Notes: a model not told the origin generated them from the letters alone. Positions 2,336 to 29,610 are shown, counted from the stretch's first letter. The stretch is 34,452 nt of DNA from Candidatus Adlerbacteria bacterium (GCA_903915735.1 CAIWUA010000073.1:1-34452), one strand, 5' to 3'. A program made the numbers and translations.

Positions 2336-2345
2336 CCTTTTGTAC

Positions 2346-2374: not shown

Positions 2375-2426
2375 AGCACGTGGAAGGCTCCTGCGCAAAT
2401 GTAGGGGTCGGAGCAAGGGGACTTAC

Positions 2427-2798: not shown

Positions 2799-2935
2799 CA
2801 ACTTATTTTTTGACGGTTTTTTTCAAACAATACTCGAAGTATAGATAGCCATCTATTATCCCCAATTTAGCCTTTTGTTGCAGGCTATTTTTCCAATTCT
2901 TCATATAAAATTAACGGAGGGGATGTACCCCGTTT

Positions 2936-5900
2936 ATGGCTCTACGCCTGCATACGGTCTTTGGAGTATTTTTTGCTGTTTTGGCGCTCTATGGTGCACC
3001 CTTGTTTGTCGCGCACGCGGCGTGGGATCATACTCCCTATGCCGCCGGTCAAACCCTCAACCCCGAGTGCGGGCCAACCGACGAAAACTGCACCGTTAAT
3101 ACTAATTATTTTTCGCAGCCGGTAGGGTTTGCCACCACAACGCCCGCGGCGACGGTAGAGATAGCGGGCTCGGGCAGGGGCAACACCTTTTTGGGCAGCG
3201 GTAGTTCGCTGTTAAACATTGATGCGGCCAATGAGGGTCCGTGGGGGCTCACCTTCCAAAACGATGTTGCCGGCATGGGCAACGAAGTGGGATTTTATCT
3301 CGGCAATGACGGGACATTCCACCTGAGCGACAATATTGGCCACTTTCTTTTTAACGCGTTTCAAAACGGCAACGTAACGCTCGCTCAGTACGGCGGCAGG
3401 GTGGGTGTCGGCACCAGCAACCCCCAAAGCACGCTCGATGTCGGCGGCGACATCGGGATCTCAGGATATAACCGCTATCTCAACTTTAATGTCGATAATT
3501 TTGGTGTCGGCTCGGGCGGCTTTGGCTTGCGCGACAACGGGGGCACCATCCAATACAAAAACCTCGGCGGCAGCTGGACCGACCTCAGCCAAAGCGCCTG
3601 GGAGACCAACGGCAGCGGGATCGACTATGGCGGCGGCAGTGTTGGCATTGGTACCACCGAACCTAAAACAACCCTCACGGTCAACGGCGCGCTCTCGACG
3701 CTTTTGGAGGGCGATGTATTTAAGCAATATGACCCCACCACCGGGGAAGGGAATCTTTACCCGCTGCTTGGCCGCTATTTTGACGAAAGTGGGAGCCCAT
3801 ATAGCGGTATGACTTTCCTCTTTGGCTCCGGCCCTAGCGCTGCGGTTGGTATAGAAAAGCCGGGCGGAGACAAAGTAAATCTCTTCCGCGTGCGCGCGGA
3901 CAACAGCACCTTTACCGGCAATGTCGGGATAGGCACCACTAACCCGACATCCAAGCTCGATGTGGTAAGTATGCCCGGCACCGATGTGGGCGACTCGGTC
4001 GCCTCGTTTACCTCAAACGACACTTGGCAGTCTGGGTTTACCGTCTCCAACACATCCTCCGAGGCCGCGTGGTCCTTTATGGTCGGTGGAGACACAAACA
4101 ACTACAGCGGTGTGGATGTGGGGAACTTTGGTTTTTATAACGCAGCGTCGGGCAACTTTCCGTTTATCATGCAGCGCAGCTCCAACAATGTTATTCTCAC
4201 GCGAGACAACGGCCGGGTGGGTATCGGCACCTCAAACCCCAACGCCAAGTTGCAGGTTGATGGTCTTGTAACCGGCGACAGCTTTGGTGTCGGGCAAAAC
4301 ACCTGGCTCACCAACAGCGCGCCGTGGTACGGCATTGGCCTCAGCGACCTGTCGCTGCCGCGCACCGAGGATGCCGGGCGCGCCGTGCAGGTGGCGGGCT
4401 ACGGCGGGCTCAACTTTATTACCTCGGGCGGGCAGATGGTGCTCAACGACCAAGGCAAGGTAGGTATCGGCACCAACGACCCGCAATCGACGCTCGACGT
4501 CAACGGCGACATCCGTATAACCGGCAGTGACCACCGACTCTACTTCTCCGACGGTTCGTCGATGTGGACCTCTTCGAGCACCAACGCCAGCGGTGTCGAC
4601 AGCGAGGGCGACATCAACTTTACCACCGGCGGGCAAATAAATTTGATTACCGGAGACGGCTTTGCAACGAGCTCAAAACTCACGGTCAAAAACAACGGCT
4701 GGATAGGCATCGGCACGCAAGACCCGACCTCGCCGCTTGATATTTATGATAACCAAACCGGCCAGCGCAATCTTTTAACGCTGCAGAGCTTTTTTGACGG
4801 CGGCGACCAGGGGCCGGGGATACTCTTCCGCGATACCAACAACCCGGGCGGTGACGGCGCGGCCGGTATCCGTGCGATTTCATCCGGCCAAGGCGAGGCG
4901 GGACTTGCATTTGATACCAACTACAGCGGGAGCCTCAACGAGGCGATGCGCATAGACTCTCGCGGCCGCGTGGGCGTCGGCACCAACAACCCCGACGAGA
5001 TGCTGCAGGTCAACGGGCGGGCTAGTGCCGACAGCTTTTCGGTAGGCCAAGCGACCGAGGATAATTTCAACAACTCGCCGTGGTATGGCATCGGGCAGAG
5101 CAACATAACGCTCCCTGGTACCGACTACGAGTTTGGGACAGCTGTGCAGGTTGCGGGCTACTACGGGCTCTTGTTCCAAGCGGCGGGAGGTCAAGCGGTG
5201 TTTAATCAGCAAGGCAACTTTGGCATTGGCACGACCGCTCCCGCGACGATGCTCGATGTAGCTGGCTCGGCGCGTCTTACCAGCACGACGGGCGACACCT
5301 ACCTTAACTTCGGCACGAGCACGACCGGTGCCGACGGCTACGGCGTACGCTTCCACGCTGGGGTGATGCAGTTTCGCAACAATGGCGGCGACTGGACCGA
5401 CCTTGGCACTGGCTACGGTACACCCACCACCACTATCAACATTGCGGGCCCCGGAGGCAACGATGGTCTCAAATTTTCGTCGACCTACAGCTCACCAACC
5501 GGTTGGGCGGGCAATGTGATCGGCTCATCCACCAACTATTTGTATGTACAAAACAACAACAGGGGTTTTGATGTCGTAGACATCACCAATCGCGCGCACC
5601 CGGTAAGGGTGGCGAGTTACCAAACCGGCTCGTCGTGGATTAACCAGTCCTTCTCGTTTGGGAGCACGGTGTATCTCATTGGCTATGACGGTCGGTATCA
5701 CCTCGAGATTATCGATGTGTCCGACCCGACCCACCCGGTAGAGACGGGCACCTACTACTCAACCAGCGCCGACCACGTATACCAAGGTGCCGCGTGGGGA
5801 GGCGAAGTGTATCTTAAAAACGACAACGGTTACATCGAGGCGGTTAATGTATCAAACCCGGCGTCTCCGCAGGTCGACGCTGTGATCCATGCGCACTCAG

Positions 5901-8900
5901 ATGACGGACCTTTTTGGAATCCTCCGCACGCGAGCGGCAACCGGCTCTTTGTGGCCGACTACAACGGTGACGTCGAGATATTTGACGTCACCGACCCGAC
6001 CGCGCCGGTGTGGAAGTCGAACTACCACTCGGCACAAGGGTGGGCCTATCACTACACAATCTCGGGTAATTATTTGTACGAAAACTTTAACAACTTTGAG
6101 GTGGTCGATATCCATGACCTCACCAGCCCGACCCTGGTGGCCACCTACAGCTCGCCGTCGTCATGGATAGACGCACCGACCGTGTCGGGGGCCTATGCCT
6201 ATGCCGAGAACAACAACAGCCAGCTCGAAGCCATTGATATCAGCAACCCTGCAGCACCCACCTTTGTAACTACTTACGCCTCGGCGAGCGGCTGGTTGAA
6301 CGGCTCTCCTTTTATTGACAATGGGTACTTGTACACAGAGAACAACAACAACCAATTAGAGGCCATCGACATCAGCAACCCGCACGTGCCCATTGCCGCG
6401 ACCTTTACCGGCGGGCGCGTGGGGGTGGGCACGCTGTCGCCCGATGCGGCGCTGTCGGTAGTAGGCACCGGCGGCAATGTGCCCGTGTTCAAATCACACT
6501 ACATCTCGCCCACTAACTATCTTAATACTCCCTTTGTACTCAACTCGATTGCGTATAGCGAAAACGATAACGGCGCGATAGAGATAATCGACGAGACCGA
6601 CCCGACGCACCCGGTACTTGATGCAACTTATGCCTCGACGACGGGATCGCTGCGCGTGCCTATGGCTGCCGGCAACGCACTGTATGCGGTCAATAACAGC
6701 GACGGCTCTATCGAGGTTGTAGATGTTACCAACAAATCGGCCCCAACCTACCTGACCTCGCTGGTGGGTCAAGAGGGCTCGACGTTTAATTACTTTACTA
6801 TCAGCGGGTCGCACCTATACGCGGTTGATACGGCGGGGAATCTTGAGATCTTTAACATCTCCGATCCTTCAAACATTACACTAGACGACGCGTTTACTGC
6901 GTCGACCGGCCTTGATTACAACAATGTTATTAGTGCTCAAGGCACGTGGGTCTACGTGCGCACAACTGACGAAGATATAGATATTATAGACGCCTCCACG
7001 CCGTCGGCCCCAACCGACGAGGGTACCTACAGCCCGCATACGGGCATCGTACGCTCTTTCTTTGCGGCCGATGGGGTGCTGTATATCCAAAACAGCAGCT
7101 ACAACATCGAGATAGCCGATCTCCAAACCCCGAGTAGTCCTGTCTATCGCTCAACCTACGATGTGCCGACCAATCTGTTTATCCGGTCCGGTGCCGAGGA
7201 GGAAAACCGCTTCCTTTACATCCCCGATAACGACTGCTCGATTGAAGTCGTCGATGTTAACGACCAGTATAATCCGCGGTTGGTGTCGGTGTACAAGGGG
7301 CCCAGCAACTGCGCAGGGAATGCTTTTGTGGACTCTAACAAGTTGTACGTAATAAACGGCAACGACCAGCTCGAAGTTGCCGACATCTCGAGTGTGCCGC
7401 ACCCCAGCAGTGCGGCCACCTTTGAGGATGGCCTGGTCGGCATCGGTACAAATACTCCGCACGCCACACTCGACGTCAACGGCAATGTCGCTCTCTCGGG
7501 CTACAACCGCTACTTTAACTTTAATGCCGACAACTCCGGTGTGGGCCAAAACGGCTACGGCTTCCGTGACAACAGCGGGACCATACAATACAAAAACGCG
7601 GGCGGCACGTGGAGCGACTTCTCTGCTCCGAGCGGCTGGGTGGCCGAGAGCGACGGCAGCACACGCTTTGGCTCGGGCACTTACACGCTGAGCGGCTTGC
7701 CGACCAAATCATCCGACATAACCGACGGACTCTTTCTTTACCCGGTTAATGTCAACAGCAACACCGACTGGCGCTACTATATCGACGACGACTCGACCGA
7801 CTCGTTGTCCTTTTATGGCAATAGCTGTGCTAGCGACTGTCACAACGCAAGTGCAGCATCGGTCATCATGCACCTCAACGCCTCGGGCGAAGTAGGCATC
7901 GGCACAAGCACGCCCGCCGCCAAGCTCGACGTGGCCGGGTCGGCGCGACTTATCGCCGACGGCGATGCGTATCTCAACTTTAACAGCACGACCAACTACG
8001 CGGGCGATACGATAGGCAACGGCGGCTACGGTATCCGCATGCACAACGGGGTGATGCAGTTTAGAAACGAGAGCGGCGACTGGACCGATATGGGCTCGGG
8101 TACCGGAAGTATTTCATCAACAACAGCGCTTACTCTTATCGGCACAACAACGCCGCCGGTTATCAGCGGCACTTCTACCTACGGCGATTGGCCGACCGCG
8201 GTGGCGATACAGGGCCACTATGCTTACAGCGTCAACTCAAACAGCGGGTCGTTTACCGTGACCGATATCACCAACCACAACAGTCCGGTGGTCGTCGATG
8301 TGATTACCGGGTTGGGGAGCGACTACGACTCGCCCGAGGACATCGCCGTGGCCGGGCACTATGCCTATGTGACCAGCGAAGGTAACGAACGACTGTATGT
8401 TGTCGACATATCAAATGCCGAAAATGTCTCGGTGGTGGGGTCGTACGACTTTTCAAGTTTGGGCAACGGGCCCGACCATATCAAAGTCGAGGGCTCTTAT
8501 GCGTATGTAACCGCGCCTAACGCCGGGCTCGCGGTGCTTAACATACAAAATCCTCTAAACATTACGCTCACCGGCTTTCTTAAGCTGCCGGGCGCCGATC
8601 CGTTGACGGTGCAAGGCTCGTACGTGTATGTCTCGGACGTAACCACCAATGATGTGTATGCCATTAATGTTGCCGACCCGGCGCACCCCGCTATTGTTGG
8701 CGGCATATCGGTGGCTTCTGCGTACGGACTCGATATGGCCGGCCGCTACTTGTATGTGGCCAGCAACAACTCCGGCGAGCTGACGGTCATTGATGCCGCC
8801 GATCCGTCGTCGCTCAGTTTTGTCACCTCGGTCGAGACAGACAACTATCCGGGGTTTGTAAAAATTGAAGGCAAGCGCGCGTATGTGAGCACCTCTAACG

Positions 8901-16624: not shown

Positions 16625-16627
16625 TAT

Positions 16628-19351
16628 ATGAAGCGCTTTTGGCAATTTCTCCCGCTCATTGTCGCGAGCTTTTTAATCATCTCGGCGGCATCGGCATCGG
16701 TCGTGATGGGGGTCTTGCGCTCAAACCAAGGAGACATAACAACCGGCTTGGTCGACCACTACACCATGGACCATGTCGACTTTAGCGGGTCGACGCTCCA
16801 CGATGTGGCGGGCGGCGCCGACGCAACCTTGGTCGGTTCGGCCGGCACGACGGTCGGCGGGCCGCTGGGGCAGGGGTACTTATTTTCGGGGGGTACCACC
16901 TTTGACACGACGCGCATCGTGCAGGACGACTTTACTATTTGTGCGTGGTTTAAAACGACCAGCCGTGGCATCTACACGAACCACTGGCAGAGCATGGCGA
17001 TTTACGACTCGGAGCAGCCGGGGCTTGCACAAGATTTTAGTTTGGGACTCGACTCCAACGGCAGGCTGATGTTTGGTGACGGCAGCGTAAGCCAAGGAGA
17101 CTTTAGTTTTAGTGGTCAGAGTACCGTCAACACCGGGCTATGGGTGTTGGGATGCGCGACGCGCCAAAAAAGCACCGGCGCGATTACACTCTACGTCAAC
17201 GGCGCGCCCGACGGCAGCGGCACGGGGGCGATTGGCACGTCGCTTACCTCAAATGCTTCGGCGCGCATTGGTGGCGGATTTGACGGGGCAGCCAACTTTA
17301 CGGGCACGATCGACGACGTACGTGTATACAACCGCGTTCTGTCGCCGCGGGACATCCAAACGCTTTACAGCGTGCCGGTGCCGGCCTCAATCCCGGGGCT
17401 CCGGCTGTGGCTGCGGGCGGACGAAATCCCGGGTCTCTCCGACGGCTCCGAGCTCACGGCGTGGGACGACTCAAGCGGACACAACAACTCGTTTACGCCG
17501 CACCCCGGCGATTCGGGGCCGACCTATCACACCGGCGAGTTGGGCGGCCTGCCGTCGCTGATGTTTAGTACGAGCCAATCGCTGCAAAACACCGGGCTCA
17601 ACCTCAACTCGAGTTGGACCATACTCTACGTCACAAGACTGCTCGGCACGACCAACGGCCGCACGCTGCAAGGCGGCAGCAATAATTGGCTCTTGGGTAC
17701 ATGGGGCACGTATGTCAACTCGGCATACTACAACAACGACATCCATTTAGTGAGCGATGCGGCCGACACGCAGTGGCGGCTGTATGAAGGTACCGGCAGT
17801 CGCGCGCAGGCGCATGGCACCTTTTATGTTAACGGCCGGCTCGTTGCGCAATCGAGCACGGCCTTTGAGGGGCCGGTGGGGTTAGGACTCAACAGCGGCG
17901 CTTTTAACGGCGAGCGCTCGGGTATGGAGGTGAGCGAGGTGCTGGCCTACGACCACCCGCTGACGCAAGTCGAGCGGGTACGGCTCGAGCAGTATCTTAA
18001 AACTAAATACGGGTTGGATATTGTGTCCGAAAAGCCCGCGACCGCCGCGCAGGTTAACAGTGTCTCGACTGATGGGTTGGTGGCGTACTGGCCGCTCGAC
18101 GATGCGTCGACGCCTATCAGGGACAAAAGCGGCAATGGATACGACGGTACATTGGGGGGCATTTTTGCTCCGGCTACGGGCAAAATAAATAAAGCACTCT
18201 ACTTTAACGGCGGCACGCTTATCGCCACCACGCTGCCGCTGCCGCGCTCGTACACCAAAGCGGCGTGGGTCAAGCTAAGTTCGTGTGTCGGTGCCAACAA
18301 CTTTATCTCGAGTGTCGACGACAGCGGGACGGCCTTTTGGGCGCCAGATTCCTTTGGGTGCAAATTGAGCGCCGGTAATCAAGGGACATGGGATATTGTT
18401 CAAGACTCGGTGGGGCTGACGCCGGGTGTGTGGTACCACGTGGCGGTAACGTACGACCCCGACCTCAACGGCGGCACCTTGAGTCTGTATAAAAACGGCG
18501 TCTTGGTAAGTGCTGCCACTAACATATCGCCGGCATCGAGTCCGTATGTGCAGCTGGGCGGCCACGACAACGGCAATAATCTCAACGGGTACATGGACGA
18601 CGTGCGCATCTACAACCGCGCGCTCTCGGCCGCCGAAATTAAAAAGCTCGCCTCCTTTGTGCAGACAACTCTCAATGACTCGACAAACGCGCGCTTTACC
18701 TCGGGGCTTGTCGGCCACTGGAGTTTTGACGGCGGCGACATTAATTGGGCTGCGCCAAGCGTCACCGACAGTTCGGTGTCGGGGCACAATGGCGCGCTCG
18801 TCGGCTTTTCGAAATCGAGCGTCGCGGCCGGCAAGGACGGCCAGGCGCTGCGGTTTAACGGCAGCAATTATATTGCCGGCGGCGACGCGTCGTTGCTAAG
18901 CGGCAATCATCCGCGTACGGTGAGTGTGTGGGTCAAGCCCGACCAATTGCCGGCCACTAACGAAGCCGGAGTGTTGTTTAATTACGGCACAGCCGACACA
19001 GACCAAGCGTTTGGTATCGGGCTTATAAACATCGAGGGGGTACAAAAGGTGCGTGTCTTTGGTTGGGGTGATGATTATGATGTGACGGTAACGCTCCCGG
19101 TGCATCAATGGACATTGCTTGTTGCCGAGTATGACGGGTCCCACTCTAACTTGTTTGTTAACACGACATTTGCAAGCGGGCATTATCCGGACAACAGCAA
19201 CGTCCGCCCTTCTTTATATACGGTCCTCAACCAGTATGAGATTGGGCGCAATATTGCTGGGGGCGACTATTATCAAGGGCTTATAGACGACGTACGTGTG
19301 TATAACCGGGCTCTTGCGCCGAGTGAGATACAAGCTTTATACTTACTGTAA
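16628..19351 (+). CDS. Secreted protein with four tandem LamG / concanavalin-A-like lectin domains (907 aa)
   Basis: Signal/TM segment MKRFWQFLPLIVASFLIISAASA. Four roughly 200-aa units each end in a LamG_3-type motif: GTIDDVRVYNRVLSPRDIQTLY, SEVLAYDHPLTQVERVRLEQYLKTKYGL, GYMDDVRIYNRALSAAEIKKLA, GLIDDVRVYNRALAPSEIQALY. The ATG is 3 nt after the giant ORF stop. Confidence 0.88.
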   Translation: MKRFWQFLPLIVASFLIISAASASVVMGVLRSNQGDITTGLVDHYTMDHVDFSGSTLHDVAGGADATLVGSAGTTVGGPLGQGYLFSGGTTFDTTRIVQDDFTICAWFKTTSRGIYTNHWQSMAIYDSEQPGLAQDFSLGLDSNGRLMFGDGSVSQGDFSFSGQSTVNTGLWVLGCATRQKSTGAITLYVNGAPDGSGTGAIGTSLTSNASARIGGGFDGAANFTGTIDDVRVYNRVLSPRDIQTLYSVPVPASIPGLRLWLRADEIPGLSDGSELTAWDDSSGHNNSFTPHPGDSGPTYHTGELGGLPSLMFSTSQSLQNTGLNLNSSWTILYVTRLLGTTNGRTLQGGSNNWLLGTWGTYVNSAYYNNDIHLVSDAADTQWRLYEGTGSRAQAHGTFYVNGRLVAQSSTAFEGPVGLGLNSGAFNGERSGMEVSEVLAYDHPLTQVERVRLEQYLKTKYGLDIVSEKPATAAQVNSVSTDGLVAYWPLDDASTPIRDKSGNGYDGTLGGIFAPATGKINKALYFNGGTLIATTLPLPRSYTKAAWVKLSSCVGANNFISSVDDSGTAFWAPDSFGCKLSAGNQGTWDIVQDSVGLTPGVWYHVAVTYDPDLNGGTLSLYKNGVLVSAATNISPASSPYVQLGGHDNGNNLNGYMDDVRIYNRALSAAEIKKLASFVQTTLNDSTNARFTSGLVGHWSFDGGDINWAAPSVTDSSVSGHNGALVGFSKSSVAAGKDGQALRFNGSNYIAGGDASLLSGNHPRTVSVWVKPDQLPATNEAGVLFNYGTADTDQAFGIGLINIEGVQKVRVFGWGDDYDVTVTLPVHQWTLLVAEYDGSHSNLFVNTTFASGHYPDNSNVRPSLYTVLNQYEIGRNIAGGDYYQGLIDDVRVYNRALAPSEIQALYLL

Positions 19352-19362
19352 CCTTGATACTT

Positions 19363-19566
19363 ATGAACCGACTCATACAACTCGCATCGCTCTTTTCGGT
19401 AGCGTTGGTCGCCGGTGCCGCAGGCGTAGTTAAAATCGCGCACAATCCGGGTGCTCTCATGGCAACTCTGCACAGCAGCAAGGTGGCGCTCGCCGCCGCT
19501 CCGGTGTGTACCGTGCAAGAAAAAAACGGTGTCTATTTTGCAAGCTGCGGCGACTTTGTCGAATAA
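19363..19566 (+). CDS. Small secreted hypothetical protein (67 aa from the ATG; a TTG at 19354 is possible)
   Basis: MNRLIQLASLFSVALVAGAAG is a signal peptide. The mature part has two Cys (PVCTVQEKNGVYFASCGDFVE). It is packed between neighbouring genes with 11-nt and 3-nt gaps. Confidence 0.5.
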   Translation: MNRLIQLASLFSVALVAGAAGVVKIAHNPGALMATLHSSKVALAAAPVCTVQEKNGVYFASCGDFVE

Positions 19567-19569
19567 ATC

Positions 19570-21144
19570 GTGAGACTATTGCGTCTCGGGTTGGTAGTGG
19601 TTGCGGTGGTGATAGTTGGGGGCGGCGTGTGGGTGGGCTATGACCGCTACGCGCAGGCAGAAGAGCGCGCACGCCTGGTGCGCGAACTTGCCGACTTTGT
19701 GGTGCCCGAGGTGGTATATAACGGCATTACCTATACGGTTGGCGACAGCACACCACTGCCGGTGTTGCGTATTGCCTATGCCGCGGTACTCAGCCGACTT
19801 GACCCTTTGTACGGGCTCGAGGGGACTGAGCCCGACAAGTTGGTGCAAAGTGTTGATGATTTAGAAAACTTTCAATCCTCGCTCGGGGCATCGTACGACC
19901 CCAGCCAGGCGCTCTACATTACTAAACTCTTTCCGATTGATTTTTTGCGCGCCGCGGCCGACACCGAGCGGGCGCGGCAGGATTTTGTTGCTGCACCGTC
20001 GGACACTCGTCTCCGTGCTTACGAGCAAAGTCTGCGCACAACAGTGCGGGGAGGCCAGAGCTATGTAGACGACTTGCTCAACTTTTTAGATACGCAAGAC
20101 ACCGGAGTAAAGAAGGGCCTCGCATTTTTTGACGGAGAGACCACCCTGTCCGATTACACCGCGAGCCTCGCCGAGTACCGCAAGACTCTTGCCTGGGCCT
20201 CTGCCGCAGTCGACCGGCGTGATGCTTGTTTTGATCGGGTAGGCGACGGGTGTCCGTCGTTGCAGGACACCTTAGCAAAGCTCGCGGCGGGCACGACCAC
20301 CGCATCGGTTGCGGCCGCCTTACCGTCACAGGTCGAGACTAACCGCGCTTTGCTTACAAAGTACATGCGCGGCAGTTCGGAGGCGACGGTTGGCAAGGTG
20401 GTGGCGCTTACGGGGAGCCCCTGCTTTGCGCAATTTGATCCGGTGTACTACTTGTCTATGCAAATACCGCAAGGCAGCTCGACCGCGTACTCGTTGGGGT
20501 TGCTCAACGATATTTATTTTTATGATTCGGCCAAACATCCGACCGACGCGCGCTACACGCCCGAGCTAAAGGCCGCCGTGCCGTACGTCTATCAGTCGGC
20601 ATCTAATTTGTACATGTGTTTGGCATCGGGCAACGACCTGGTGCGCGCGATAACACTCGACACGCTGGCGCATCGCTTTGGCGTCCGTTCGCCGGTCATA
20701 ACCGAACCTGACCTCGTGGCCCGCACGGCGAGCGCCGGCAGCGAGCTGGTACATGTTGGCGAGCGTGCGCTTGCGGCTCGGCAAGGCACGGCCACGGTCT
20801 ATGCTACCGAGCGTACGCTCCTTATTGCCCACGAGCACGGCGCTCGTTTTGACGAGCTGATAGAAGATGCTATCGCTAACGAAGACGCCGCCGCGGTGTA
20901 TGCCGCCAATAACGAAAAGTTGCCCTTGGCAACGCTCTTTTTGGCGCGCAGTTACTTGCCGCTTCTTATGCTGACCTACAACCTAAGTGTGTCGCCCCAG
21001 CCGCTGGTGTTAACGACGCCGTACTATTTCACCATTACCCAGTTTGGGTTGGTCCCGTACAGCGCGCTTGAAAGTACCTACTCGCCGGCACAAATGCTCG
21101 CCATGATGTTGAGGGGGAGTGCCATACAAAAAAAGCGCCCCTAA
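19570..21144 (+). CDS. Hypothetical membrane-anchored protein (524 aa); no family recognised
   Basis: GTG start. The N-terminal TM is LRLGLVVVAVVIVGGGVWVGY. The composition looks like real protein, in contrast to the Arg-rich alternative frames. The following gene starts 2 nt after its stop. Confidence 0.75.
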   Translation: MRLLRLGLVVVAVVIVGGGVWVGYDRYAQAEERARLVRELADFVVPEVVYNGITYTVGDSTPLPVLRIAYAAVLSRLDPLYGLEGTEPDKLVQSVDDLENFQSSLGASYDPSQALYITKLFPIDFLRAAADTERARQDFVAAPSDTRLRAYEQSLRTTVRGGQSYVDDLLNFLDTQDTGVKKGLAFFDGETTLSDYTASLAEYRKTLAWASAAVDRRDACFDRVGDGCPSLQDTLAKLAAGTTTASVAAALPSQVETNRALLTKYMRGSSEATVGKVVALTGSPCFAQFDPVYYLSMQIPQGSSTAYSLGLLNDIYFYDSAKHPTDARYTPELKAAVPYVYQSASNLYMCLASGNDLVRAITLDTLAHRFGVRSPVITEPDLVARTASAGSELVHVGERALAARQGTATVYATERTLLIAHEHGARFDELIEDAIANEDAAAVYAANNEKLPLATLFLARSYLPLLMLTYNLSVSPQPLVLTTPYYFTITQFGLVPYSALESTYSPAQMLAMMLRGSAIQKKRP

Positions 21145-21146
21145 CT

Positions 21147-21728
21147 ATGTTGCACCACTACGCTCCGGCTTCGTTCGACAAAGACGCAACAGACGTTGTC
21201 GTCCTTTCCGACCGGCCGGAGTGGAGCTCGGGTACCCGCGCTCTTCGGGTGCTCAAGTCTGTGGTAGTGCTGACACTGGTGCCGCTTTTTTGGCAGCTGC
21301 TCCCGGGGTTACACGGCGCGTGTCGGGTACTCAAGGTGCCGTTTTTTTTAGGTTCGATGGGCAACCTTACTCTGGCGGCCGTGGTAGCAGCCGAAGCGGC
21401 TGTTGATACGGTTATGGCCGAGGCATGCGATGCTCAACAAATTATCGACGCCCTCAAGCTTCATGGGGTCGCGCCGCGTGCATGGGTGCTCCTTCATCGG
21501 GGTGGGGAGGTGCGGCCTTTGCCGATGGCTTTATTGGCGCCGTATATCCAGGTCGCCCAAGAGGTCCACGCTATCCCGGGCGTGGCGTGCTTGGCACAAT
21601 GCGAGGTGCTTATCGCGCGCAAAGAAGCTCTCTTTCATACCGTGCCAATGCCTGCCGCGGTCGAGCCGCTCGCGACCGAGGCCACAGGCACCTGCACGTG
21701 CGGCGAAACAATTTACCGATGCGTATGA
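21147..21728 (+). CDS. Hypothetical protein (193 aa) with a Cys-rich C-terminus; no family recognised
   Basis: ATG 2 nt after the previous stop. One hydrophobic segment, VVVLTLVPLFWQLLPGL. Ends GTCTCGETIYRCV. Its stop TGA overlaps the next ATG (ATGA at 21725-21728). Confidence 0.65.
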   Translation: MLHHYAPASFDKDATDVVVLSDRPEWSSGTRALRVLKSVVVLTLVPLFWQLLPGLHGACRVLKVPFFLGSMGNLTLAAVVAAEAAVDTVMAEACDAQQIIDALKLHGVAPRAWVLLHRGGEVRPLPMALLAPYIQVAQEVHAIPGVACLAQCEVLIARKEALFHTVPMPAAVEPLATEATGTCTCGETIYRCV

Positions 21729-22927
21729 ACCTACCCCAACCTCTTGTCGATCTTGTCGCGCGCTGCACGCACCTGCACATCAGTACGTGGGCGCAGTGGC
21801 AGGCCCTGCCGCCCGTTACGCGCGAGCAGCTCGGCCGCTTTTCGTATCGTGAGCGATGTGTAGTGCCGCTTGCCGAGGTCGAACGCATTGTGGCGACCTC
21901 GGGCACCAGCGGGCGACCGCCGTTTCTTACGGCACTGGGGTTCACGGTGCGTAGCTACGACTTTTTAGACGAGTGGTATCGTTTTAGCAAACCTATTGTG
22001 TGTGTTGACCAAAATTATCTGCGGCTCGAGCAGTACTTGGCGCGTGCCGGCTCGCCGGTGCCTATCCTTATTATCGACCCGCGCGCGCCAAAGGTAACGG
22101 CGGCGCTCGCCCAAGCGGCCGGTGCCGACACGTTGTTTATCCTCGAGCCGCAATTGCGCTCGGTGGGTGATGAGATGGCACGGTGCGGGGCTGCCGCCAA
22201 TATCCGCTTTTTAATGCTTGGCGGTGGCGACATTGGCCCGCACGTTGCGTATTTGTCGCGCACCTTCCCACAGGCGGTATTACTTGGCCGGTATGCGGCG
22301 AGCGAGGTCGAGGGCAACCCTATTGGGGTGCCGTGCAACGCGGTCACTCCCGAGGCACCCGAGCAGTACTATCATGCCAATACGGACATGCATCTCGATA
22401 TAGTCGACCCAACCGACGGTACCGATGTCCCGTGGGCACCGGGTGCCGAGGGCGACCTGCTGGTGTCGACTCCGCATCCGGCGGTCGCTTCGCCGCTCAT
22501 CCGCTACAAAATAGGCGACCGCGTGCGCGTCGCCGAAACGCCCTGTGCGCGCCACCGCGCGTACGCGTTTGCGGTACTCGGTCGCGCTAATCTCGACTTT
22601 GTTAAGGTGCAGGGCGGTCAATTGCGTGTCGACGAACTGGCCCGCACCGTGCGGCAATTTGCCGCCGTCATAACCGGTGAGTTTGAGTTGCAATACACCG
22701 AGCGCGACAACGGCCGTGGGGTCGAGCTTGCCGCCACACTCTACCTCGAGCCACGCGGGCCGCTTGACTGGACCCAGTTTGCCGAGACGATGGCACACGA
22801 GCTACGGGTGGGGCCGAGCTTTACCTACGCACAGGGTGTCGCTCGCGGCTGGTATGCCCCCTTGGTGTGCGCCCCTTTGCCGCCTATTACACAAGGGGTC
22901 AAGCGCAAACGCCTCACCCGTGTGTGA
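21725..22927 (+). CDS. Adenylate-forming enzyme of the phenylacetate-CoA ligase (PaaK) / coenzyme F390 synthetase family, about 400 aa (the ATG at 21719 is also possible)
   Basis: It aligns by eye to E. coli PaaK. VERIVATSGTSGRPPF matches VRIHASSGTTGKPTV. GRYAASEVEGNPIGVPC matches DIYGLSEVMGPGVAMEC. DIVDPTDGTDVPWAPGAEGDLLVST....PLIRYKIGDRVRV matches EIVNPHDGTPLADGEHGELLFTT....PVIRYRTRDLTRL. LGRANLDFVKVQGGQLRVDEL matches SGRSDDMLIIRGVNVFPSQLE. Confidence 0.8.
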   Translation: MNLPQPLVDLVARCTHLHISTWAQWQALPPVTREQLGRFSYRERCVVPLAEVERIVATSGTSGRPPFLTALGFTVRSYDFLDEWYRFSKPIVCVDQNYLRLEQYLARAGSPVPILIIDPRAPKVTAALAQAAGADTLFILEPQLRSVGDEMARCGAAANIRFLMLGGGDIGPHVAYLSRTFPQAVLLGRYAASEVEGNPIGVPCNAVTPEAPEQYYHANTDMHLDIVDPTDGTDVPWAPGAEGDLLVSTPHPAVASPLIRYKIGDRVRVAETPCARHRAYAFAVLGRANLDFVKVQGGQLRVDELARTVRQFAAVITGEFELQYTERDNGRGVELAATLYLEPRGPLDWTQFAETMAHELRVGPSFTYAQGVARGWYAPLVCAPLPPITQGVKRKRLTRV

Positions 22928-22993
22928 ATATCGGGGTATTTTTATCCCCACGGGGGTGCGGTATACTTAACGGGATAGTAATTATTTATTTGT

Positions 22994-23578
22994 ATGGACA
23001 CCCCTCTACCAGAGCCGCGTCGCCGTCGTCGTCGCACAGAGCTCGAGGTAGAAGTACAACCACCTATGACAGACCAACAACAAGCCGCCTATGCAACAGT
23101 AGCCAAGCCGGGATTTTTTGTCCGCATGCTTGTATGGTTGCTGCGATTTTGCCGCCGCAATATCTTTAGCGTCGTGCCCGTCGCTATTTTGCTTATAGCG
23201 CTCGGGTATTATTACTACCAGTATCAAAACCTGCTCAGTAAAAGCCCGGCGAACGCCCAAGCTCAGGCGCAAGAGCAGACGCGCGCCGTCGTGACCGATA
23301 TCGAAAAGCTCATGTATATTGCCGACGACTCGGGCGCGCAGTTGGCGACCATATCGGATATCACCAAACTCCAAGGTCAAAAGTTTTTTGAGAACGCCAA
23401 AAACGGCGACGACTTGGTGCTCTTCCCGGCGGCGCAACAAGCCATCCTGTACCGGCCTTCGACGCACAAGATAGTGCAGGTAGGTCCTTTTACTCCGGGG
23501 ACAGGGTCAACAGCCTCCTCGGCCGCCTCGGGCACTAAAGCTCCGGCTACCCAAGCCACCTCGACAAAAACACGCTAA
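22994..23578 (+). CDS. Hypothetical single-pass membrane protein (194 aa)
   Basis: Arg-rich cytoplasmic N-terminus (PEPRRRRRRTELE), TM FSVVPVAILLIALGYYYY, and a C-terminal S/T/A-rich tail. Confidence 0.7.
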   Translation: MDTPLPEPRRRRRRTELEVEVQPPMTDQQQAAYATVAKPGFFVRMLVWLLRFCRRNIFSVVPVAILLIALGYYYYQYQNLLSKSPANAQAQAQEQTRAVVTDIEKLMYIADDSGAQLATISDITKLQGQKFFENAKNGDDLVLFPAAQQAILYRPSTHKIVQVGPFTPGTGSTASSAASGTKAPATQATSTKTR

Positions 23579-23581
23579 CCT

Positions 23582-24832
23582 ATGCGCACCGCGCTCCTTA
23601 CGGCCATGCTCCTCTTGGGCTTACCGGCCGTGGCCTTTGCGTCGCAAACTGACGGCACTGTCTCTGCCACAACTAAGTATGCCTGGGGCGAGAATATGGG
23701 TTGGATAAACTTTGCGCCCCAAAACGGAGATACGTATACCGGCATCCATATTACCGATACAGCCGTAACCGGCTATGCATGGAGTGCGGCGGTAGGTTGG
23801 ATCAACTTTAGCCCGACCAACTCCGGGCAGGGGGTCACCAACACATCCGACGGCCACTTGGGCGGCTATGCGTGGATAGCGACCAAGGGATGGTTGTCTA
23901 TGTCGGGCGTTAGTATCAACTCCTCGGGCAAAATCACCGGTATTGCAGGCACCGAGGGGAGCACGGTTGGCCGCGTGTCGTTTGATTGTACGCAATGCAA
24001 CGTGACCACCGACTGGCGCCCCACATCGGCGCGCTCGGAGGATACACCTCCTCCGTCGCCGCCACCGGCCGCCGGCGGACCTATTGCCGTGGCGACAAAC
24101 CACCCAGTACCTGCAACACTTCCGGTGCCGACAACAGCGCCTGCCAGCCCCAACGCCGCGCCGTCCGCGGGCGACACGGCCGTACCAGCGGCCCCAGTTA
24201 GCAGCCCGGATCCTATCGCGCAATTTTATAGAGACATTATCCAAACTGTTCCCGCGTTGCGTGCCGACCTAAACCACGTCGAGTCGTACGACAAACCTTT
24301 GCGGGTCGAACCCCAACAAACCGGGCTTGTTGTCGGGCAGTTTGTAAGCGGGGTGGGGGCGGCCGTCGAGATACCGCGCAATGTATCAACCGGCGCGTTG
24401 ACTATCTCTATTACGGCGCGGCCGCTCGCGGTCTCTACCGCCACAACCGCCCTCGTAGCTATGGGGGGTGTAGCGTTTGATGTTACGGCCGTCGACTCTC
24501 AGGGCAATGCCGTCCACTCGTTTAATCATCTATTAAAAATTACGCTTGTCGTCCCACAGTCGCTGCAAGGCCGCAGCGACATTGGCGTGTATTGGTTTGA
24601 CCCCGGCTCGAACAATTGGGTGCTGGTGTCCGACGTGACGTTTACCGGGCGGACGGCGAGCTTTACGGTTGCGCACCTTACTCGCTTTGCGGTACTTGGC
24701 GACCGCATCGCAGTATCCCAACCGACACTGCCGCCGAAGACCGCCGTCAATGAAGACTGGCTTTGGCTGCTCGTGGTGCTTATTGTTGTGTACATTGCAC
24801 AGCGTTGGTATAGACACACCAGAGACAAATGA
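23582..24832 (+). CDS. Secreted, C-terminally anchored surface protein with three 'YAW-x(4-5)-GW-I/L-x-F/M' repeats and a Pro-rich linker (416 aa)
   Basis: Signal peptide MRTALLTAMLLLGLPAVAFA. Repeats KYAWGENMGWINFAPQNG, GYAWSAAVGWINFSPTNSG and GYAWIATKGWLSMSG. Linker TPPPSPPPAAGGP...PVPATLPVPTTAPASP. C-terminal TM WLWLLVVLIVVYIAQRWY. Confidence 0.8.
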   Translation: MRTALLTAMLLLGLPAVAFASQTDGTVSATTKYAWGENMGWINFAPQNGDTYTGIHITDTAVTGYAWSAAVGWINFSPTNSGQGVTNTSDGHLGGYAWIATKGWLSMSGVSINSSGKITGIAGTEGSTVGRVSFDCTQCNVTTDWRPTSARSEDTPPPSPPPAAGGPIAVATNHPVPATLPVPTTAPASPNAAPSAGDTAVPAAPVSSPDPIAQFYRDIIQTVPALRADLNHVESYDKPLRVEPQQTGLVVGQFVSGVGAAVEIPRNVSTGALTISITARPLAVSTATTALVAMGGVAFDVTAVDSQGNAVHSFNHLLKITLVVPQSLQGRSDIGVYWFDPGSNNWVLVSDVTFTGRTASFTVAHLTRFAVLGDRIAVSQPTLPPKTAVNEDWLWLLVVLIVVYIAQRWYRHTRDK

Positions 24833-25290
24833 AATATTCGATTATAGTGGTAGGGCTACTTATGGCTGTAGTAGTAGCCTACGTGCTCTGGCCTAAAGAG
24901 GCACATACTATTTCTACTTCTTTTGCCCCTATCCCTGTTATGCGTACTATTACTGTTGGCACTACTGCGTTTAAAGTCGAGACTGTCGATACCGAAAGCT
25001 CGCGCGAGTTGGGGTTGAGCGGGCGCGCATCACTATCACAAGGGCAGGGGATGCTGTTTGTTTTTGACCATCCAGCCAACTGGGGTTTTTGGATGAAGGA
25101 TATGCACTTTGCTATCGATATTATTTTTATCGATACAAACGACGTAGCCACTACGATATATCGTAGTATCTCGCCAGACACGTACCCACAAGTTTTTTAT
25201 CCAAAAAACCCCGACACCAAGTATGTGCTCGAGGTTGCCGCCGGCGCCGCGGCAAGTATTGCCGAGGGGGATAAATTAGTGGTACAATAG
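24829..25290 (+). CDS. DUF192 family protein (COG1430-like), N-terminally membrane anchored
   Basis: GLSGRASLSQGQGMLFVFDHPANWGFWMKDMHFAIDIIFID...KYVLEVAAGAAASIAEGDKL matches the DUF192 signature. ATGA overlap with the upstream gene. GC is visibly lower than in neighbouring genes. Confidence 0.85.
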   Translation: MKYSIIVVGLLMAVVVAYVLWPKEAHTISTSFAPIPVMRTITVGTTAFKVETVDTESSRELGLSGRASLSQGQGMLFVFDHPANWGFWMKDMHFAIDIIFIDTNDVATTIYRSISPDTYPQVFYPKNPDTKYVLEVAAGAAASIAEGDKLVVQ

Positions 25291-29607: not shown

Positions 29608-29610
29608 TAA

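What the first reader, a model, noticed from the sequence alone, without database searches (positions are those of the whole stretch)
2936..25290. About 22 kb of co-directional, nearly gapless surface-protein genes between tRNA-Ser and RNase P RNA: a candidate undescribed cell-surface or host-contact system
Nine + strand ORFs are separated, in order, by 3 nt, 11 nt, 3 nt, 2 nt, an ATGA overlap (21725-21728), one 66-nt gap, 3 nt, and a second ATGA overlap (24829-24832). This looks like translational coupling. At least seven of the nine products start with a signal peptide or a single TM anchor: the giant fibre, the 4xLamG protein, the 67-aa peptide, the 524-aa orphan, the 194-aa orphan, the GWINF-repeat protein and DUF192. 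The only recognisable enzyme is a cytoplasmic PaaK-family adenylating enzyme. An S74-chaperone tail-fibre-like protein appears here without any phage structural, secretion-ATPase, sortase or glycosyltransferase genes. I do not know a described system with this gene set. One hypothesis is a dedicated attachment or host-interaction apparatus whose assembly or decoration needs an adenylation step.
Basis: partly seen in the sequence, partly recalled or inferred. Interest (0 to 1): 0.8.

Follow-up and report, generated by a model that had tools for sequence, protein, structure and literature searches.

The report
Mosaic surface-gene slot hiding a conserved peptide–ligase cassette
The nine tightly packed genes are not one apparatus: they fill a highly variable slot in a Patescibacteria (ultra-small bacteria) chromosome, and four of them form a conserved, undescribed cassette of a small cysteine-tailed peptide, a membrane protein with no known structural relative, and a pair of adenylating enzymes.

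Summary
Nine co-directional ORFs (2936-25290) lie between tRNA-Ser and a reduced RNase P RNA, with the stated spacings, and seven carry a hydrophobic segment.

In seven related Patescibacteria genomes the backbone GroEL-LemA-M48-tRNA-Ser…DUF192-RNase P RNA-TPR protein-MurJ-LepA is conserved. The tRNA-Ser-to-DUF192 slot holds 1.4-3.8 kb of unrelated genes in six of them, against 22 kb here. DUF192 is therefore a backbone gene, and unrelated backbone genes are packed just as tightly.

The 22 kb splits into three units.
- **Fibre and LamG protein:** a 4562-aa tail-fibre-like/LVIVD/S74 protein and a LamG protein, typical fast-evolving patescibacterial surface proteins.
- **Conserved cassette (g3-g6):** a 67-aa peptide ending in a Cys motif, a TM-anchored 524-aa protein with no structural neighbour, a truncated PaaK-like paralogue and a PaaK-like ligase. 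This set recurs, often in several copies, in eight other loci, none with the fibre. One locus has a g5-g6 fusion.
- **Two orphan envelope proteins (g7, g8).**

The cassette's function is inferred, not shown: ATP-dependent modification of the peptide's C-terminal Cys motif.

The parts
2714..2799 (+). tRNA-Ser(GGA). This is the left edge of the variable slot. DNA homology to the relatives stops at its 3' end.
   Evidence: ARAGORN and Rfam. blastn against L006-L011 ends at about 2799-2801. The same tRNA sits upstream of DUF192 in 6 relatives.
2936..16624 (+). g1: a 4562-aa secreted giant protein. It has an N-terminal signal-like segment, 19 'VGIGT' fibre motifs, about seven LVIVD beta-propeller blocks, a C-terminal Peptidase_S74 intramolecular-chaperone domain (aa 4382-4435) and a Ser/Thr/Pro/Asp-rich tail.
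   Evidence: Pfam LVIVD 1.8e-116 and S74 1.1e-6 (29.3 bits, cut-off 22). Choice-of-anchor B 2.6e-39. PHROG tail fibre 1.1e-17 at aa 494-799. Motif map. Only partial homologues, at most 41% coverage, for its last 762 aa.
16628..19351 (+). g2: a 907-aa secreted protein with multiple LamG/ConA-like lectin domains.
   Evidence: Laminin_G_3 2.1e-74 in 3 stretches. Signal-like N-terminus. Three DNA copies of the 'DDVR[VI]YNR' motif (D12).
19363..19566 (+). g3: a 67-aa peptide with an N-terminal hydrophobic helix and a conserved C-terminal tail, C-x12-C-G-D-F-V-E-stop. It is the first component of the cassette.
   Evidence: 18 non-redundant family members were found by regex, all in cassette loci and none in the other ~85 fetched loci. 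One more is in L100. Alignment A6: F59 and C62 invariant, C49 and G63 at least 90% conserved. No Pfam or NCBIfam match.
19570..21144 (+). g4: a 524-aa protein with one N-terminal TM anchor and four invariant cysteines (C220, C228, C285, C350). It is probably extracytoplasmic and has no detectable structural relative. Second component of the cassette.
   Evidence: Homologues sit next to g6 homologues in 8 of 8 other loci. Alignment A5. AF2 pLDDT 83, pTM 0.85. Best Foldseek E-value is 0.24 against PDB and 0.5 against BFVD. No Pfam, NCBIfam or PDB-sequence match.
21147..21728 (+). g5: a 193-aa truncated PaaK-like paralogue. It lacks the P-loop and the C-terminal domain and ends in G-T-C-x-C-G. 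Third component of the cassette.
   Evidence: hhalign of the g5 family against the g6 family: probability 89%, E 2.4e-6, aligned to the N-domain core. It is adjacent to or overlaps g6 homologues in most copies. It is fused to g6 in L097 1660-3432 (590 aa, P0078).
21725..22927 (+). g6: a 400-aa PaaK-family adenylate-forming ligase (ANL superfamily), cytoplasmic. Fourth component of the cassette.
   Evidence: Full HMMER search: 51 relatives at E<=1e-30 and 226 at E<=1e-10 among 1.84e9 representatives. S-G-T-x-G and R-Y-[RK]-x-G-D conserved (S59 90%+, K393 90%+). AF2 pLDDT 91. Foldseek top matches are PaaK1 2y27 (9e-21), ClxA, BT_0428, NatL2 and AjiA1. Curated PaaK cut-offs are not reached.
22994..23578 (+). 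g7: a 194-aa orphan with an Arg-rich N-terminus, a TM at aa 52-70 and a Ser/Thr/Ala-rich tail. The start codon is uncertain.
   Evidence: Hydropathy scan. No family in Pfam, NCBIfam, PHROGs or PADLOC. Called as 150 aa on an identical contig. No homologue in any fetched locus.
23582..24832 (+). g8: a 416-aa orphan with a signal-like N-terminus, three 'YAW…GWINF' repeats, a Pro-rich linker and a C-terminal TM anchor.
   Evidence: The repeat was found only in the window and its identical contig among all fetched loci. No family match. No phage tblastn hit.
24829..25290 (+). g9: a DUF192 protein with an N-terminal TM. It is a conserved backbone gene and not part of the variable cargo.
   Evidence: Pfam 1.1e-25. 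Orthologues of 39-61% identity sit upstream of the TPR-protein/MurJ genes in 6 of 7 relatives; in L012 (the most distant) only DUF192 and MurJ were found. DNA homology to relatives resumes inside this gene at about 24937-24946.
25293..25596 (+). Reduced bacterial class A RNase P RNA. This is a backbone feature that starts 3 nt after the DUF192 stop codon.
   Evidence: Rfam RF00010: 76.7 bits (gathering score 100), E 1.6e-23, model positions 1-367. The region is conserved at DNA level in L006, L007, L008 and L010.

Best explanation
The 22 kb between tRNA-Ser(GGA) and DUF192 is lineage-specific cargo in a hypervariable slot of a Patescibacteria (Parcubacteria-type) chromosome. It is a mosaic of at least three independent units, not one apparatus.

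**(a) g1 and g2.** g1 is a giant secreted protein that joins phage-tail-fibre-like segments, about seven LVIVD beta-propellers and a C-terminal S74 intramolecular chaperone. The chaperone most likely drives trimerisation and is then cleaved off (inferred from the domain family). g2 is a multi-LamG lectin-like protein. Both are fast-evolving surface or host-contact proteins of the kind already reported for these episymbiotic bacteria.

**(b) g3-g4-g5-g6.** This is a conserved four-gene cassette found elsewhere in Patescibacteria, often multiplied and often beside TctC- or DctP-type carboxylate-binding protein genes. g6 is a competent PaaK-type adenylating ligase. It works with g5, a truncated and probably inactive paralogue that is sometimes fused to it.

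My inferred mechanism is that the g5/g6 pair uses ATP to activate a carboxylate and couple it to the invariant cysteine of g3. That cysteine lies 4-5 residues from the peptide's C-terminus. The carboxylate could be an imported acid, giving S-acylation. It could also be the peptide's own C-terminal carboxylate, giving a thiolactone ring. The TM-anchored four-cysteine protein g4 would then handle the peptide on the outer face of the membrane.

**(c) g7 and g8.** These are orphan envelope proteins.

DUF192 (g9) is a housekeeping backbone gene. It overlaps g8 only because this genome is compact.

**Shown:** the decomposition, the synteny results, the folds and the motifs. **Inferred:** every biochemical step of the cassette and the adhesin role of g1 and g2.
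For: **Variable slot**
- Seven relatives share the backbone genes at decreasing completeness with distance (83-45% MurJ identity; tblastn).
- The tRNA-Ser-to-DUF192 interval is 1.4-3.8 kb in the six relatives where both ends are held (L006-L008, L010-L012; L009's contig lacks the tRNA). It holds a PALP enzyme, DUF1761, a hybrid histidine kinase, G6PD, a PsbP-like protein or an inositol monophosphatase.
- None of the seven has a g1-g8 homologue.
- DNA homology breaks at 2799 and resumes at about 24940.

**Compact genome**
- Unrelated backbone genes are spaced by 0-5 nt.

**Cassette**
- The g4, g5 and g6 families co-occur in L013, L014, L094, L096, L097, L098, L099 and L100, usually within a few hundred nt of each other.
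- g3-type peptides were found only in those loci.
- There is a g5-g6 fusion of 590 aa.
- g5 is homologous to the core of g6.
- g6 has the PaaK fold and motifs.
- g4 gives a confident model with no structural neighbour.
- SBP genes lie beside the cassette in L013, L094, L097, L098 and L099.
- Source labels of family members are Ca. Adlerbacteria and Ca. Kaiserbacteria.

**Fibre**
- Domain and PHROG matches.
- Only partial homologues, in other contexts.
- The literature describes giant, homologue-poor surface proteins in Patescibacteria (PMC11809585, PMC13059738).
Against: - Co-directionality and the 2-11 nt junctions allow a single transcript for g1-g6. Transcriptional linkage of the fibre and the cassette in this organism therefore cannot be excluded.
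- Only about 20 kb of each relative was examined, so g1-g8 homologues could exist elsewhere in those genomes.
- Only eight cassette loci were inspected, out of at least 51 close family representatives.
- Most cassette loci carry no taxonomic label.
- The topology of g3 is ambiguous (charges flank both sides of the helix). Its Cys tail may therefore never meet a cytoplasmic ligase.
- No enzyme-substrate relation between g6 and g3 has been tested.
- PaaK-type pockets normally take small acids, not peptide termini.
- The window cassette has no SBP gene.
Confidence: 0.75

Rival explanations
1. One reading: all nine genes form one dedicated attachment or host-interaction apparatus. They would be co-translated, and the adenylating enzyme would assemble or decorate the giant fibre.
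For: - The nine ORFs are co-directional with 2-11 nt gaps and two ATGA overlaps.
- Seven of nine products have a hydrophobic targeting segment.
- No internal terminator stands out above chance.
Against: - DUF192 is conserved with the backbone in 7 of 7 relatives that lack g1-g8.
- The ligase travels with g3, g4 and g5 in 8 of 8 other loci, and never with a fibre, LamG or GWINF gene.
- Domain-level relatives of the fibre have unrelated neighbours.
- Equally tight spacing joins unrelated backbone genes.
Confidence: 0.06
2. The 22 kb is an integrated mobile element or degraded prophage inserted at tRNA-Ser. The fibre would be a remnant tail fibre and the remaining genes would be cargo.
For: - The block sits directly 3' of a tRNA gene and is absent from relatives.
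- g1 has a phage tail-fibre PHROG match and an S74 chaperone domain.
Against: - There is no integrase, recombinase or phage structural gene in the window.
- No repeat of the tRNA 3' end flanks the block.
- GC3 and codon usage of g1-g8 match the backbone.
- Every relative carries different non-mobile cargo in the same slot.
- g1 has a signal peptide and LVIVD propellers typical of cellular surface proteins.
Confidence: 0.07
3. The g3-g6 cassette is an ordinary small-acid uptake and activation unit. The ligase would make a CoA (or other thiol) ester of an acid delivered by the nearby TctC/DctP binding proteins. g3 and g4 would be membrane accessory or transport subunits, not substrates.
For: - TctC or DctP genes lie beside the cassette in 5 of 9 loci.
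- The structural neighbours of g6 are small-acid ligases such as PaaK1, BT_0428 and 2-hydroxyisobutyryl-CoA ligase.
Against: - No TctA/B or DctQ/M permease gene appeared among the called genes that carry Pfam hits in these loci.
- g4 has a single TM and four invariant cysteines, which is not a transporter architecture.
- The g3 tail is fixed at the very C-terminus in all 19 non-redundant peptides (18 by regex plus L100's). That pattern fits a substrate or a recognised terminus better than a passive subunit.
- The window cassette has no SBP gene.
Confidence: 0.12

Closest known systems
Phage tail fibres and tailspikes with a C-terminal intramolecular chaperone (Peptidase_S74 family, e.g. endosialidase-type)
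   Same: - g1 has a C-terminal S74 domain above Pfam's cut-off.
- It has repeated 'G-x-V-G-I-G-T' fibre segments that match a PHROG tail-fibre family.
- The expected mode of action, from knowledge of the family, is chaperone-driven trimerisation followed by self-cleavage.
   Different: - g1 is 4562 aa long and has a signal-like N-terminus and about seven LVIVD propeller blocks.
- It sits in a chromosome with no phage genes.
- Self-cleavage and trimerisation were not tested.
Giant fast-evolving surface proteins of Patescibacteria (PMC11809585; PMC13059738)
   Same: - It exceeds 4000 aa and is targeted to the surface.
- It carries adhesion- or lectin-type domains, with a ConA-like protein (g2) next door.
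- It has no full-length homologues.
   Different: The domain set differs: LVIVD plus tail-fibre plus S74 here, against FhaB/DUF2341, FN3 or integrin-type domains in the published cases.
PaaK-family ANL ligases (PaaK1 2Y27/2Y4N; the ester- and amide-forming NatL2, AjiA1 and ClxA)
   Same: - The two-domain fold matches (Foldseek E down to 9e-21).
- The S-G-T-x-G loop, the R-Y-[RK]-x-G-D motif and a C-terminal lysine are present.
   Different: - Identity to solved structures is only 13-19%.
- Scores are far below every curated NCBIfam cut-off.
- An N-terminal segment is shortened.
- The enzyme always travels with a truncated paralogue, a Cys-tailed peptide and g4.
AgrD/AgrB-type autoinducing peptide maturation (a works-like analogy recalled from memory, not a membership claim)
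   Same: - The peptide is small and has an N-terminal membrane-associating helix.
- A cysteine lies 4 residues (5 in some members) from the C-terminus and is followed by hydrophobic residues. That is the ring size of a thiolactone autoinducer.
- A membrane protein is encoded next to it.
   Different: - No AgrB, AgrC or AgrA homologue was found.
- An ATP-dependent ligase stands in place of a protease-cyclase.
- The tail already ends at the stop codon.
- No modification has been shown.
tRNA-linked genomic islands
   Same: - The block lies directly 3' of a tRNA gene.
- Its content differs in every relative.
   Different: There is no integrase, no flanking direct repeat and no compositional deviation.

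Membership tests
Peptidase_S74 intramolecular-chaperone fibre proteins | C-terminal S74 chaperone domain | tested here: met
   Pfam PF13884, E 1.1e-6, 29.3 bits against a cut-off of 22, at aa 4382-4435.
Peptidase_S74 intramolecular-chaperone fibre proteins | Fibre or triple-beta-helix region upstream of the chaperone | tested here: inconclusive
   A PHROG tail-fibre family matches aa 494-799 (1.1e-17), and 19 VGIGT motifs are present. No structure of the region next to the chaperone was predicted.
Peptidase_S74 intramolecular-chaperone fibre proteins | Autoproteolytic release at a conserved serine after trimerisation | not testable with these tools
   The sequence 'SSERYKHNIEGL' at the domain start resembles the known cleavage motif (from memory).
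Peptidase_S74 intramolecular-chaperone fibre proteins | Phage or prophage gene context | tested here: not met
   No phage structural family occurs in g2-g9 or the flanks.
LVIVD-repeat beta-propeller surface proteins | Multiple LVIVD repeats | tested here: met
   PF08309, E 1.8e-116, 12 stretches. Choice-of-anchor B TIGR04312, 135.6 bits against a cut-off of 100.
LamG/ConA-like lectin fold proteins | Laminin_G_3 domains | tested here: met
   PF13385, E 2.1e-74, three stretches.
Phenylacetate-CoA ligase PaaK (equivalog) | Score above the curated whole-protein cut-off | tested here: not met
   TIGR02155 29.8 bits against 646.3. NF041878 32.2 bits against 700.
PaaK-like branch of the ANL adenylate-forming superfamily | Two-domain PaaK fold | tested here: met
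   AF2 pLDDT 91. Foldseek matches PaaK1, ClxA, BT_0428, NatL2 and AjiA1 at E 1e-15 to 1e-20 with TM 0.55-0.60.
PaaK-like branch of the ANL adenylate-forming superfamily | Phosphate-binding S-G-T-x-G loop, R-Y-[RK]-x-G-D motif and C-terminal catalytic lysine | tested here: met
   G60, T61, G63, R260 and D265 are invariant. S59, Y261, R262, G264 and K393 are at least 90% conserved in the 41-sequence alignment A1.
PaaK-like branch of the ANL adenylate-forming superfamily | Adenylation of a carboxylate and transfer to a thiol, amine or hydroxyl group | not testable with these tools
   This needs an enzyme assay.
RiPP-type (ribosomal peptide plus modifying enzyme) gene cluster | Short precursor gene with a conserved core, next to the putative modifying enzyme and recurring across genomes | tested here: met
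   19 non-redundant g3-type peptides occur in 9 of 9 cassette loci (window included), and none in the other fetched loci.
RiPP-type (ribosomal peptide plus modifying enzyme) gene cluster | Recognised RiPP enzyme class, leader-recognition element or leader peptidase | tested here: not met
   g3, g4 and g5 match no Pfam or NCBIfam family. I know of no established RiPP class that uses a PaaK-type ligase.
RiPP-type (ribosomal peptide plus modifying enzyme) gene cluster | Covalently modified peptide product | not testable with these tools
   This needs mass spectrometry.
tRNA-integrated genomic island or prophage | Integrase or recombinase gene | tested here: not met
   None appears in the Pfam, NCBIfam or PHROGs scans.
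tRNA-integrated genomic island or prophage | Direct repeat of the tRNA 3' end at the far boundary | tested here: not met
   No match of 16-20 nt with up to 2 mismatches in 2851-26000. The repeat finder shows only repeats internal to g1 and g2.
tRNA-integrated genomic island or prophage | Atypical base or codon composition | tested here: not met
   GC is 0.581 in the slot against 0.557 in the backbone. GC3 and codon-usage distances fall within the backbone range.
tRNA-integrated genomic island or prophage | Presence or absence polymorphism among relatives | tested here: met
   Absent from all 7 relatives. The slot content differs in each.
Anti-phage defence system (PADLOC) | Match to any known or candidate defence protein model | tested here: not met
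   No hit for g2-g9 or orf99.
DUF192 (COG1430) | Pfam domain match | tested here: met
   PF02643, E 1.1e-25. Orthologues occupy the same backbone position in 7 relatives.

The most novel reading that the evidence does not exclude
The g3-g6 cassette may be a previously unrecognised kind of ribosomal-peptide maturation system in Patescibacteria.

In this reading a PaaK-type ligase, paired with a degenerate paralogue, uses ATP to modify the invariant C-terminal cysteine motif of a small membrane-tethered peptide. The product would be a thiolactone ring of autoinducer size or an S-acylated peptide. A membrane protein with no known structural relative would then process, export or sense that product.

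The multiplied and diversified copies per genome would be a repertoire of signals or effectors used between these episymbionts and their hosts.
Probability: 0.22. Interest if true: 0.8.

Novelty: new variant of a known kind. Interest (0 to 1): 0.55.

Why it matters
Patescibacteria make up a large part of bacterial diversity. They live attached to other cells and have very few characterised lineage-specific systems.

- **A caution for genome scans.** In these compact genomes, co-directional and near-gapless genes next to a giant adhesin need not form a system. Comparing the slot with relatives separates backbone, variable cargo and true modules.
- **A testable new object.** The scan turned up a rare four-gene cassette that is conserved and often multiplied. 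Three of its four protein families are in no curated library, and one has no structural neighbour. It pairs an adenylating enzyme with a cysteine-tailed peptide. If the peptide is the enzyme's substrate, this would be new peptide chemistry and a candidate signalling or effector system in organisms that cannot yet be grown alone.
- **The fibre and LamG pair.** These add one more example of fast-evolving host-contact proteins, which is expected rather than surprising.

Tried and rejected
- **Word-indexed searches misled at first.** Searches with g4 and g6 returned only the proteins themselves, which made them look like orphans. The exhaustive HMMER search overturned this for g6, and local tblastn, phmmer and jackhmmer on fetched loci overturned it for g3, g4 and g5.
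- **Whole-g1 query.** It timed out. Only the last 762 aa were searched, so a full-length g1 relative could have been missed.
- **Locus scan with the 41-sequence alignment.** 78 of its 80 loci were generic PaaK relatives and served only as negative controls.
- **Structure prediction with locus-derived sequences.** This was solved by registering g4 homologues through an exact look-up.
- **Profile searches of the g4 and g5 families against PDB sequences.** Nothing credible.
- **Promoter and terminator scans.** Counts were at chance level, so they do not define operon boundaries.
- **Mobile-element reading.** No att-like repeat, no integrase and native codon usage.
- **Defence-island reading.** No PADLOC hits.
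- **Phage origin of g8.** No tblastn hit in 50,697 phage records.
- **GWINF repeat elsewhere.** Not found in any other fetched locus.
- **Literature.** No paper holds the peptide motifs, and none links a PaaK-like ligase to precursor peptides or to Parcubacteria.
- **MftA resemblance.** I noted from memory that the mycofactocin precursor MftA also ends in …C-G-V-Y. No radical-SAM gene accompanies the cassette, so I did not pursue it.

Full report
**1. Observation**

The window carries nine + strand ORFs from 2936 to 25290 with the reported lengths. Junction spacings are 3, 11, 3, 2, -4, 66, 3 and -4 nt.

tRNA-Ser(GGA) lies at 2714-2799. An RNase P class A RNA lies at 25293-25596. It misses Rfam's gathering score (76.7 against 100 bits) but matches the full model at E 1.6e-23.

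Pfam and NCBIfam confirm the following:
- g1: LVIVD repeats (E 1.8e-116), a C-terminal Peptidase_S74 domain and a choice-of-anchor B match.
- g2: three Laminin_G_3 stretches.
- g9: DUF192.
- g6: only weak PaaK-like matches.
- g3, g4, g5, g7 and g8: nothing.

A hydropathy scan supports a targeting or anchor segment in seven of the nine products.

Three junctions depend on start-codon choice, because gene calls on identical public contigs differ for g4, g7 and DUF192. Homologues support the longer g4 and DUF192 forms.

**2. Where this is**

The flanks encode a GroEL fragment, LemA and an M48 peptidase on one side. On the other side they encode a TPR membrane protein, MurJ, LepA and a LUD protein. 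This is a chromosome.

A scan of species-representative genomes with MurJ found seven relatives:
- L006, 83% MurJ identity, a Patescibacteria MAG.
- L007, 79%, labelled Ca. Nomurabacteria.
- L008, 64%, Ca. Adlerbacteria.
- L009 to L012, 64-45%.

tblastn and blastn show a conserved backbone: GroEL-LemA-M48-tRNA-Ser(GGA)-[slot]-DUF192-RNase P RNA-TPR protein-MurJ-LepA-tRNAs. Its completeness falls with distance; the most distant relative, L012, shows only part of LemA, the tRNA, DUF192 and MurJ.

**3. The slot is hypervariable**

From tRNA-Ser to DUF192 the window has 22.0 kb. The six relatives in which both ends are held have 1.4-3.8 kb (L009's contig does not reach the tRNA). Each carries different genes:
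- a PLP enzyme, a secreted orphan and DUF1761 (L006);
- a hybrid histidine kinase and DUF1761 (L007);
- G6PD (L010, and by eye L008);
- PsbP-like and other genes (L011);
- an inositol monophosphatase and others (L012).

None of g1-g8 has a tblastn hit in any relative locus.

DNA homology stops at the end of the tRNA and resumes about 110 nt inside DUF192.

There is no repeat of the tRNA 3' end, no integrase and no compositional deviation. This looks like a plasticity slot rather than a classical mobile island.

DUF192 is a backbone gene. Its ATGA overlap with g8 has a parallel in L006, where the unrelated DUF1761 gene overlaps DUF192.

Unrelated backbone genes in the window are separated by only 0-5 nt. 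Near-gapless packing therefore carries no information about function here.

**4. The fibre and the LamG protein**

Two PHROG families match g1:
- a tail-fibre family matches aa 494-799;
- a family of unknown function matches repeatedly.

g1 also has 19 'VGIGT' motifs that alternate with LVIVD blocks.

Its last 762 aa find only partial homologues of at most 41% coverage. Most are S74-containing proteins of 600-1300 aa, and several are labelled Patescibacteria or Parcubacteria.

Three of these homologues on long contigs share no neighbours with the window. The only overlap is LamG genes several kb away in one toxin-antitoxin-rich region.

Published work on Patescibacteria describes exactly this picture:
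- Proteins over 4000 aa with adhesion-type domains have no full-length homologues across the phylum and are proposed to evolve by domain reshuffling (PMC11809585).
- Very large surface-targeted proteins carry ConA-like and other adhesion domains (PMC13059738).

I therefore file g1 and g2 as new members of a known kind. Their adhesin role and the trimerise-then-cleave action of the S74 domain are inferred from family knowledge, not tested.

**5. The conserved cassette g3-g6**

The exhaustive HMMER search showed that g6 is not an orphan. Among 1.84 billion representatives it has 51 full-length relatives at E<=1e-30 and 226 at E<=1e-10, with 34-39% identity for the best. Source labels of family members include Ca. 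Adlerbacteria and Ca. Kaiserbacteria.

Contexts came from a metagenome scan (L013 and L014) and exact look-ups (L094 to L101). Eight independent loci have usable flanks. Homologues of g4, g5 and g6 sit together in all eight, usually within a few hundred nt and often in two to five copies.

A C-terminal motif search found g3-type peptides 18 times (non-redundant), all in these loci or the window, and none in the roughly 85 other fetched loci. L100 has one more, giving 19 in all.

The peptides are 45-81 aa as read from the first ATG, most of them 66-81 aa; one further motif hit lies in a 156-aa ORF and was realigned from an internal start. They have an N-terminal hydrophobic helix, a first cysteine and a variable polar stretch. 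The tail then runs straight to the stop codon and comes in two forms:
- [IV][FY]F[VIA][SG]-C-G-G-[FIL][FY];
- M-L-F-[IV]-[SG]-C-G-G-F-[LI]-D, which lies next to a second, shorter PaaK-like type.

The window's tail is V-Y-F-A-S-C-G-D-F-V-E.

The usual gene order is [TctC or DctP binding protein]-g5-g6-g3-g4. The window has g3-g4-g5-g6 and no binding protein.

None of these loci encodes a g1, g2, g7, g8 or g9 homologue.

**6. Anatomy of the cassette proteins**

- **g6** models confidently (pLDDT 91). Its closest solved structures are PaaK1, ClxA, BT_0428, NatL2 and AjiA1. The S-G-T-x-G loop, the R-Y-[RK]-x-G-D motif and a C-terminal lysine are conserved, so it should be an active adenylate-forming enzyme. 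It is far below every curated PaaK cut-off.
- **g5** is a truncated relative of the g6 N-domain core (hhalign 89%, E 2.4e-6). It lacks the phosphate loop and the C-terminal domain. It is fused upstream of g6 in one 590-aa protein, which argues for a physical partnership.
- **g4** has one N-terminal TM helix and four invariant cysteines. Its model is confident (pLDDT 83, pTM 0.85). Foldseek finds no significant neighbour in the PDB (best E 0.24) or in BFVD (best E 0.5).

**7. How the cassette most likely works (inference)**

PaaK-type enzymes adenylate a carboxylate and pass it to a thiol, amine or hydroxyl group. This is established family chemistry. NatL2, AjiA1 and ClxA show that the acceptor need not be CoA.

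The one feature conserved in every g3 peptide is a cysteine in a small-residue context, 4 or 5 residues from a free C-terminus.

I therefore propose that g5/g6 couples an activated carboxylate to this cysteine. There are two candidate carboxylates:
- An imported acid. The carboxylate-binding protein genes beside 5 of 9 cassettes fit this.
- The peptide's own C-terminus, which would give a 5- or 6-residue thiolactone ring.

g4, with its probable disulfides, would act outside the membrane. I give about 0.35 to 'g3 is the acceptor or substrate of g6'.

The main alternative is a plain acid-CoA ligase unit with membrane accessory proteins.

The membrane topology of g3 is unresolved, and that is the weakest point of the model.

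**8. g7 and g8**

Both are envelope orphans with no relatives in any library or fetched locus. They follow the only real gap in the block (66 nt, or 198 nt with the alternative g7 start). I can say nothing about their function beyond localisation.

**9. Verdict**

The sequence-level observation is right. The nine-gene system is not supported.

The stretch is a mosaic:
- variable surface-protein cargo (g1, g2, g7, g8);
- one conserved backbone gene (DUF192);
- a real, rare and undescribed four-gene cassette.

The cassette is the part worth following up.

**10. Limits**

- Only about 20 kb per relative was examined.
- Eight cassette loci were inspected.
- Most cassette loci have no taxonomic label.
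- No expression or biochemical data exist.
- No library of predicted cellular structures was searched for g4.

Noticed in passing
window 25293-25596: The RNase P RNA is short (304 nt against a 367-position model) and scores 76.7 bits, below Rfam's gathering score of 100. It starts 3 nt after the DUF192 stop codon. The default Rfam scan missed it.
   Followed up: partly
window 29608-30490 (conserved part at 30060-30186): About 880 nt lie between MurJ and LepA with no convincing ORF. In relatives L007-L011 the two genes are about 15-45 nt apart, and about 510 nt in L006. A 127-nt stretch is 86.6% identical to L006 7912-8037. Only weak Rfam matches below gathering score were found, and those lie at 29606-29673.
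   Followed up: partly
window 32907-34452; L006-L011 at about 12-17 kb: The tRNA-Gly(CCC), tRNA-Arg(CCT) and tRNA-Phe(GAA) cluster downstream of LepA is conserved in the relatives. The strand of individual tRNAs differs between genomes, which points to small local inversions.
   Followed up: no
window 2340-2639: A 99-aa ORF lies between M48 and tRNA-Ser. It matches no family, and the closest relatives show no DNA homology there (the blastn gap runs from 2322 to 2711). It may not be a gene.
   Followed up: partly
L013 1250-5335 (-), L014 4528-6236 (-), L098 726-5103 (-), L100 9607-12816 (-): A second, related cassette type lies beside the first. It has a shorter PaaK-like ligase (366-386 aa) and, in L013 and L098, a 248-aa partner of unknown family, which is cut to a 170-aa ORF in L014. 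Its peptides end in N-P-N-[KR]-M-L-F-[IV]-[SG]-C-G-G-F-[LI]-D. No such peptide was found in L100. In L098 a 357-aa protein follows.
   Followed up: partly
L097 1660-3432 (P0078, 590 aa); also P0144 (549 aa): P0078 is a natural g5-g6 fusion, with the truncated paralogue N-terminal to the ligase. P0144 is a longer g6-family protein that may be a similar fusion; its N-terminal part was not examined.
   Followed up: partly
L094 8951-9913; L097 4994-5977 and 8960-9931; L099 2672-3592 and 5991-6968; L098 8195-9235; L013 14908-17128: TctC- or DctP-family solute-binding protein genes sit directly beside cassette copies. No matching permease gene appears among the called genes.
   Followed up: partly
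window g1 aa ~2603-2751 and ~3996-4305 (nt ~10742-11188 and ~14921-15850): Two similar internal modules of g1 align to a collagen/PTL_trimer protein (P0007, L003). They may be repeated head or receptor-binding-like domains inside the fibre.
   Followed up: no
L006 2675-3127 and L007 6289-6870: In the two closest relatives a DUF1761 membrane-protein gene sits directly before DUF192, overlapping it in L006 and abutting it in L007. The window has g8 in that position and no DUF1761 gene.
   Followed up: no
L002 13.8-23.6 kb: The region downstream of another patescibacterial S74 protein is packed with toxin-antitoxin and abortive-infection-type genes (AbiEii, Fic, MNT/HepT, HicAB) interleaved with LamG genes. 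This is another variable region.
   Followed up: no
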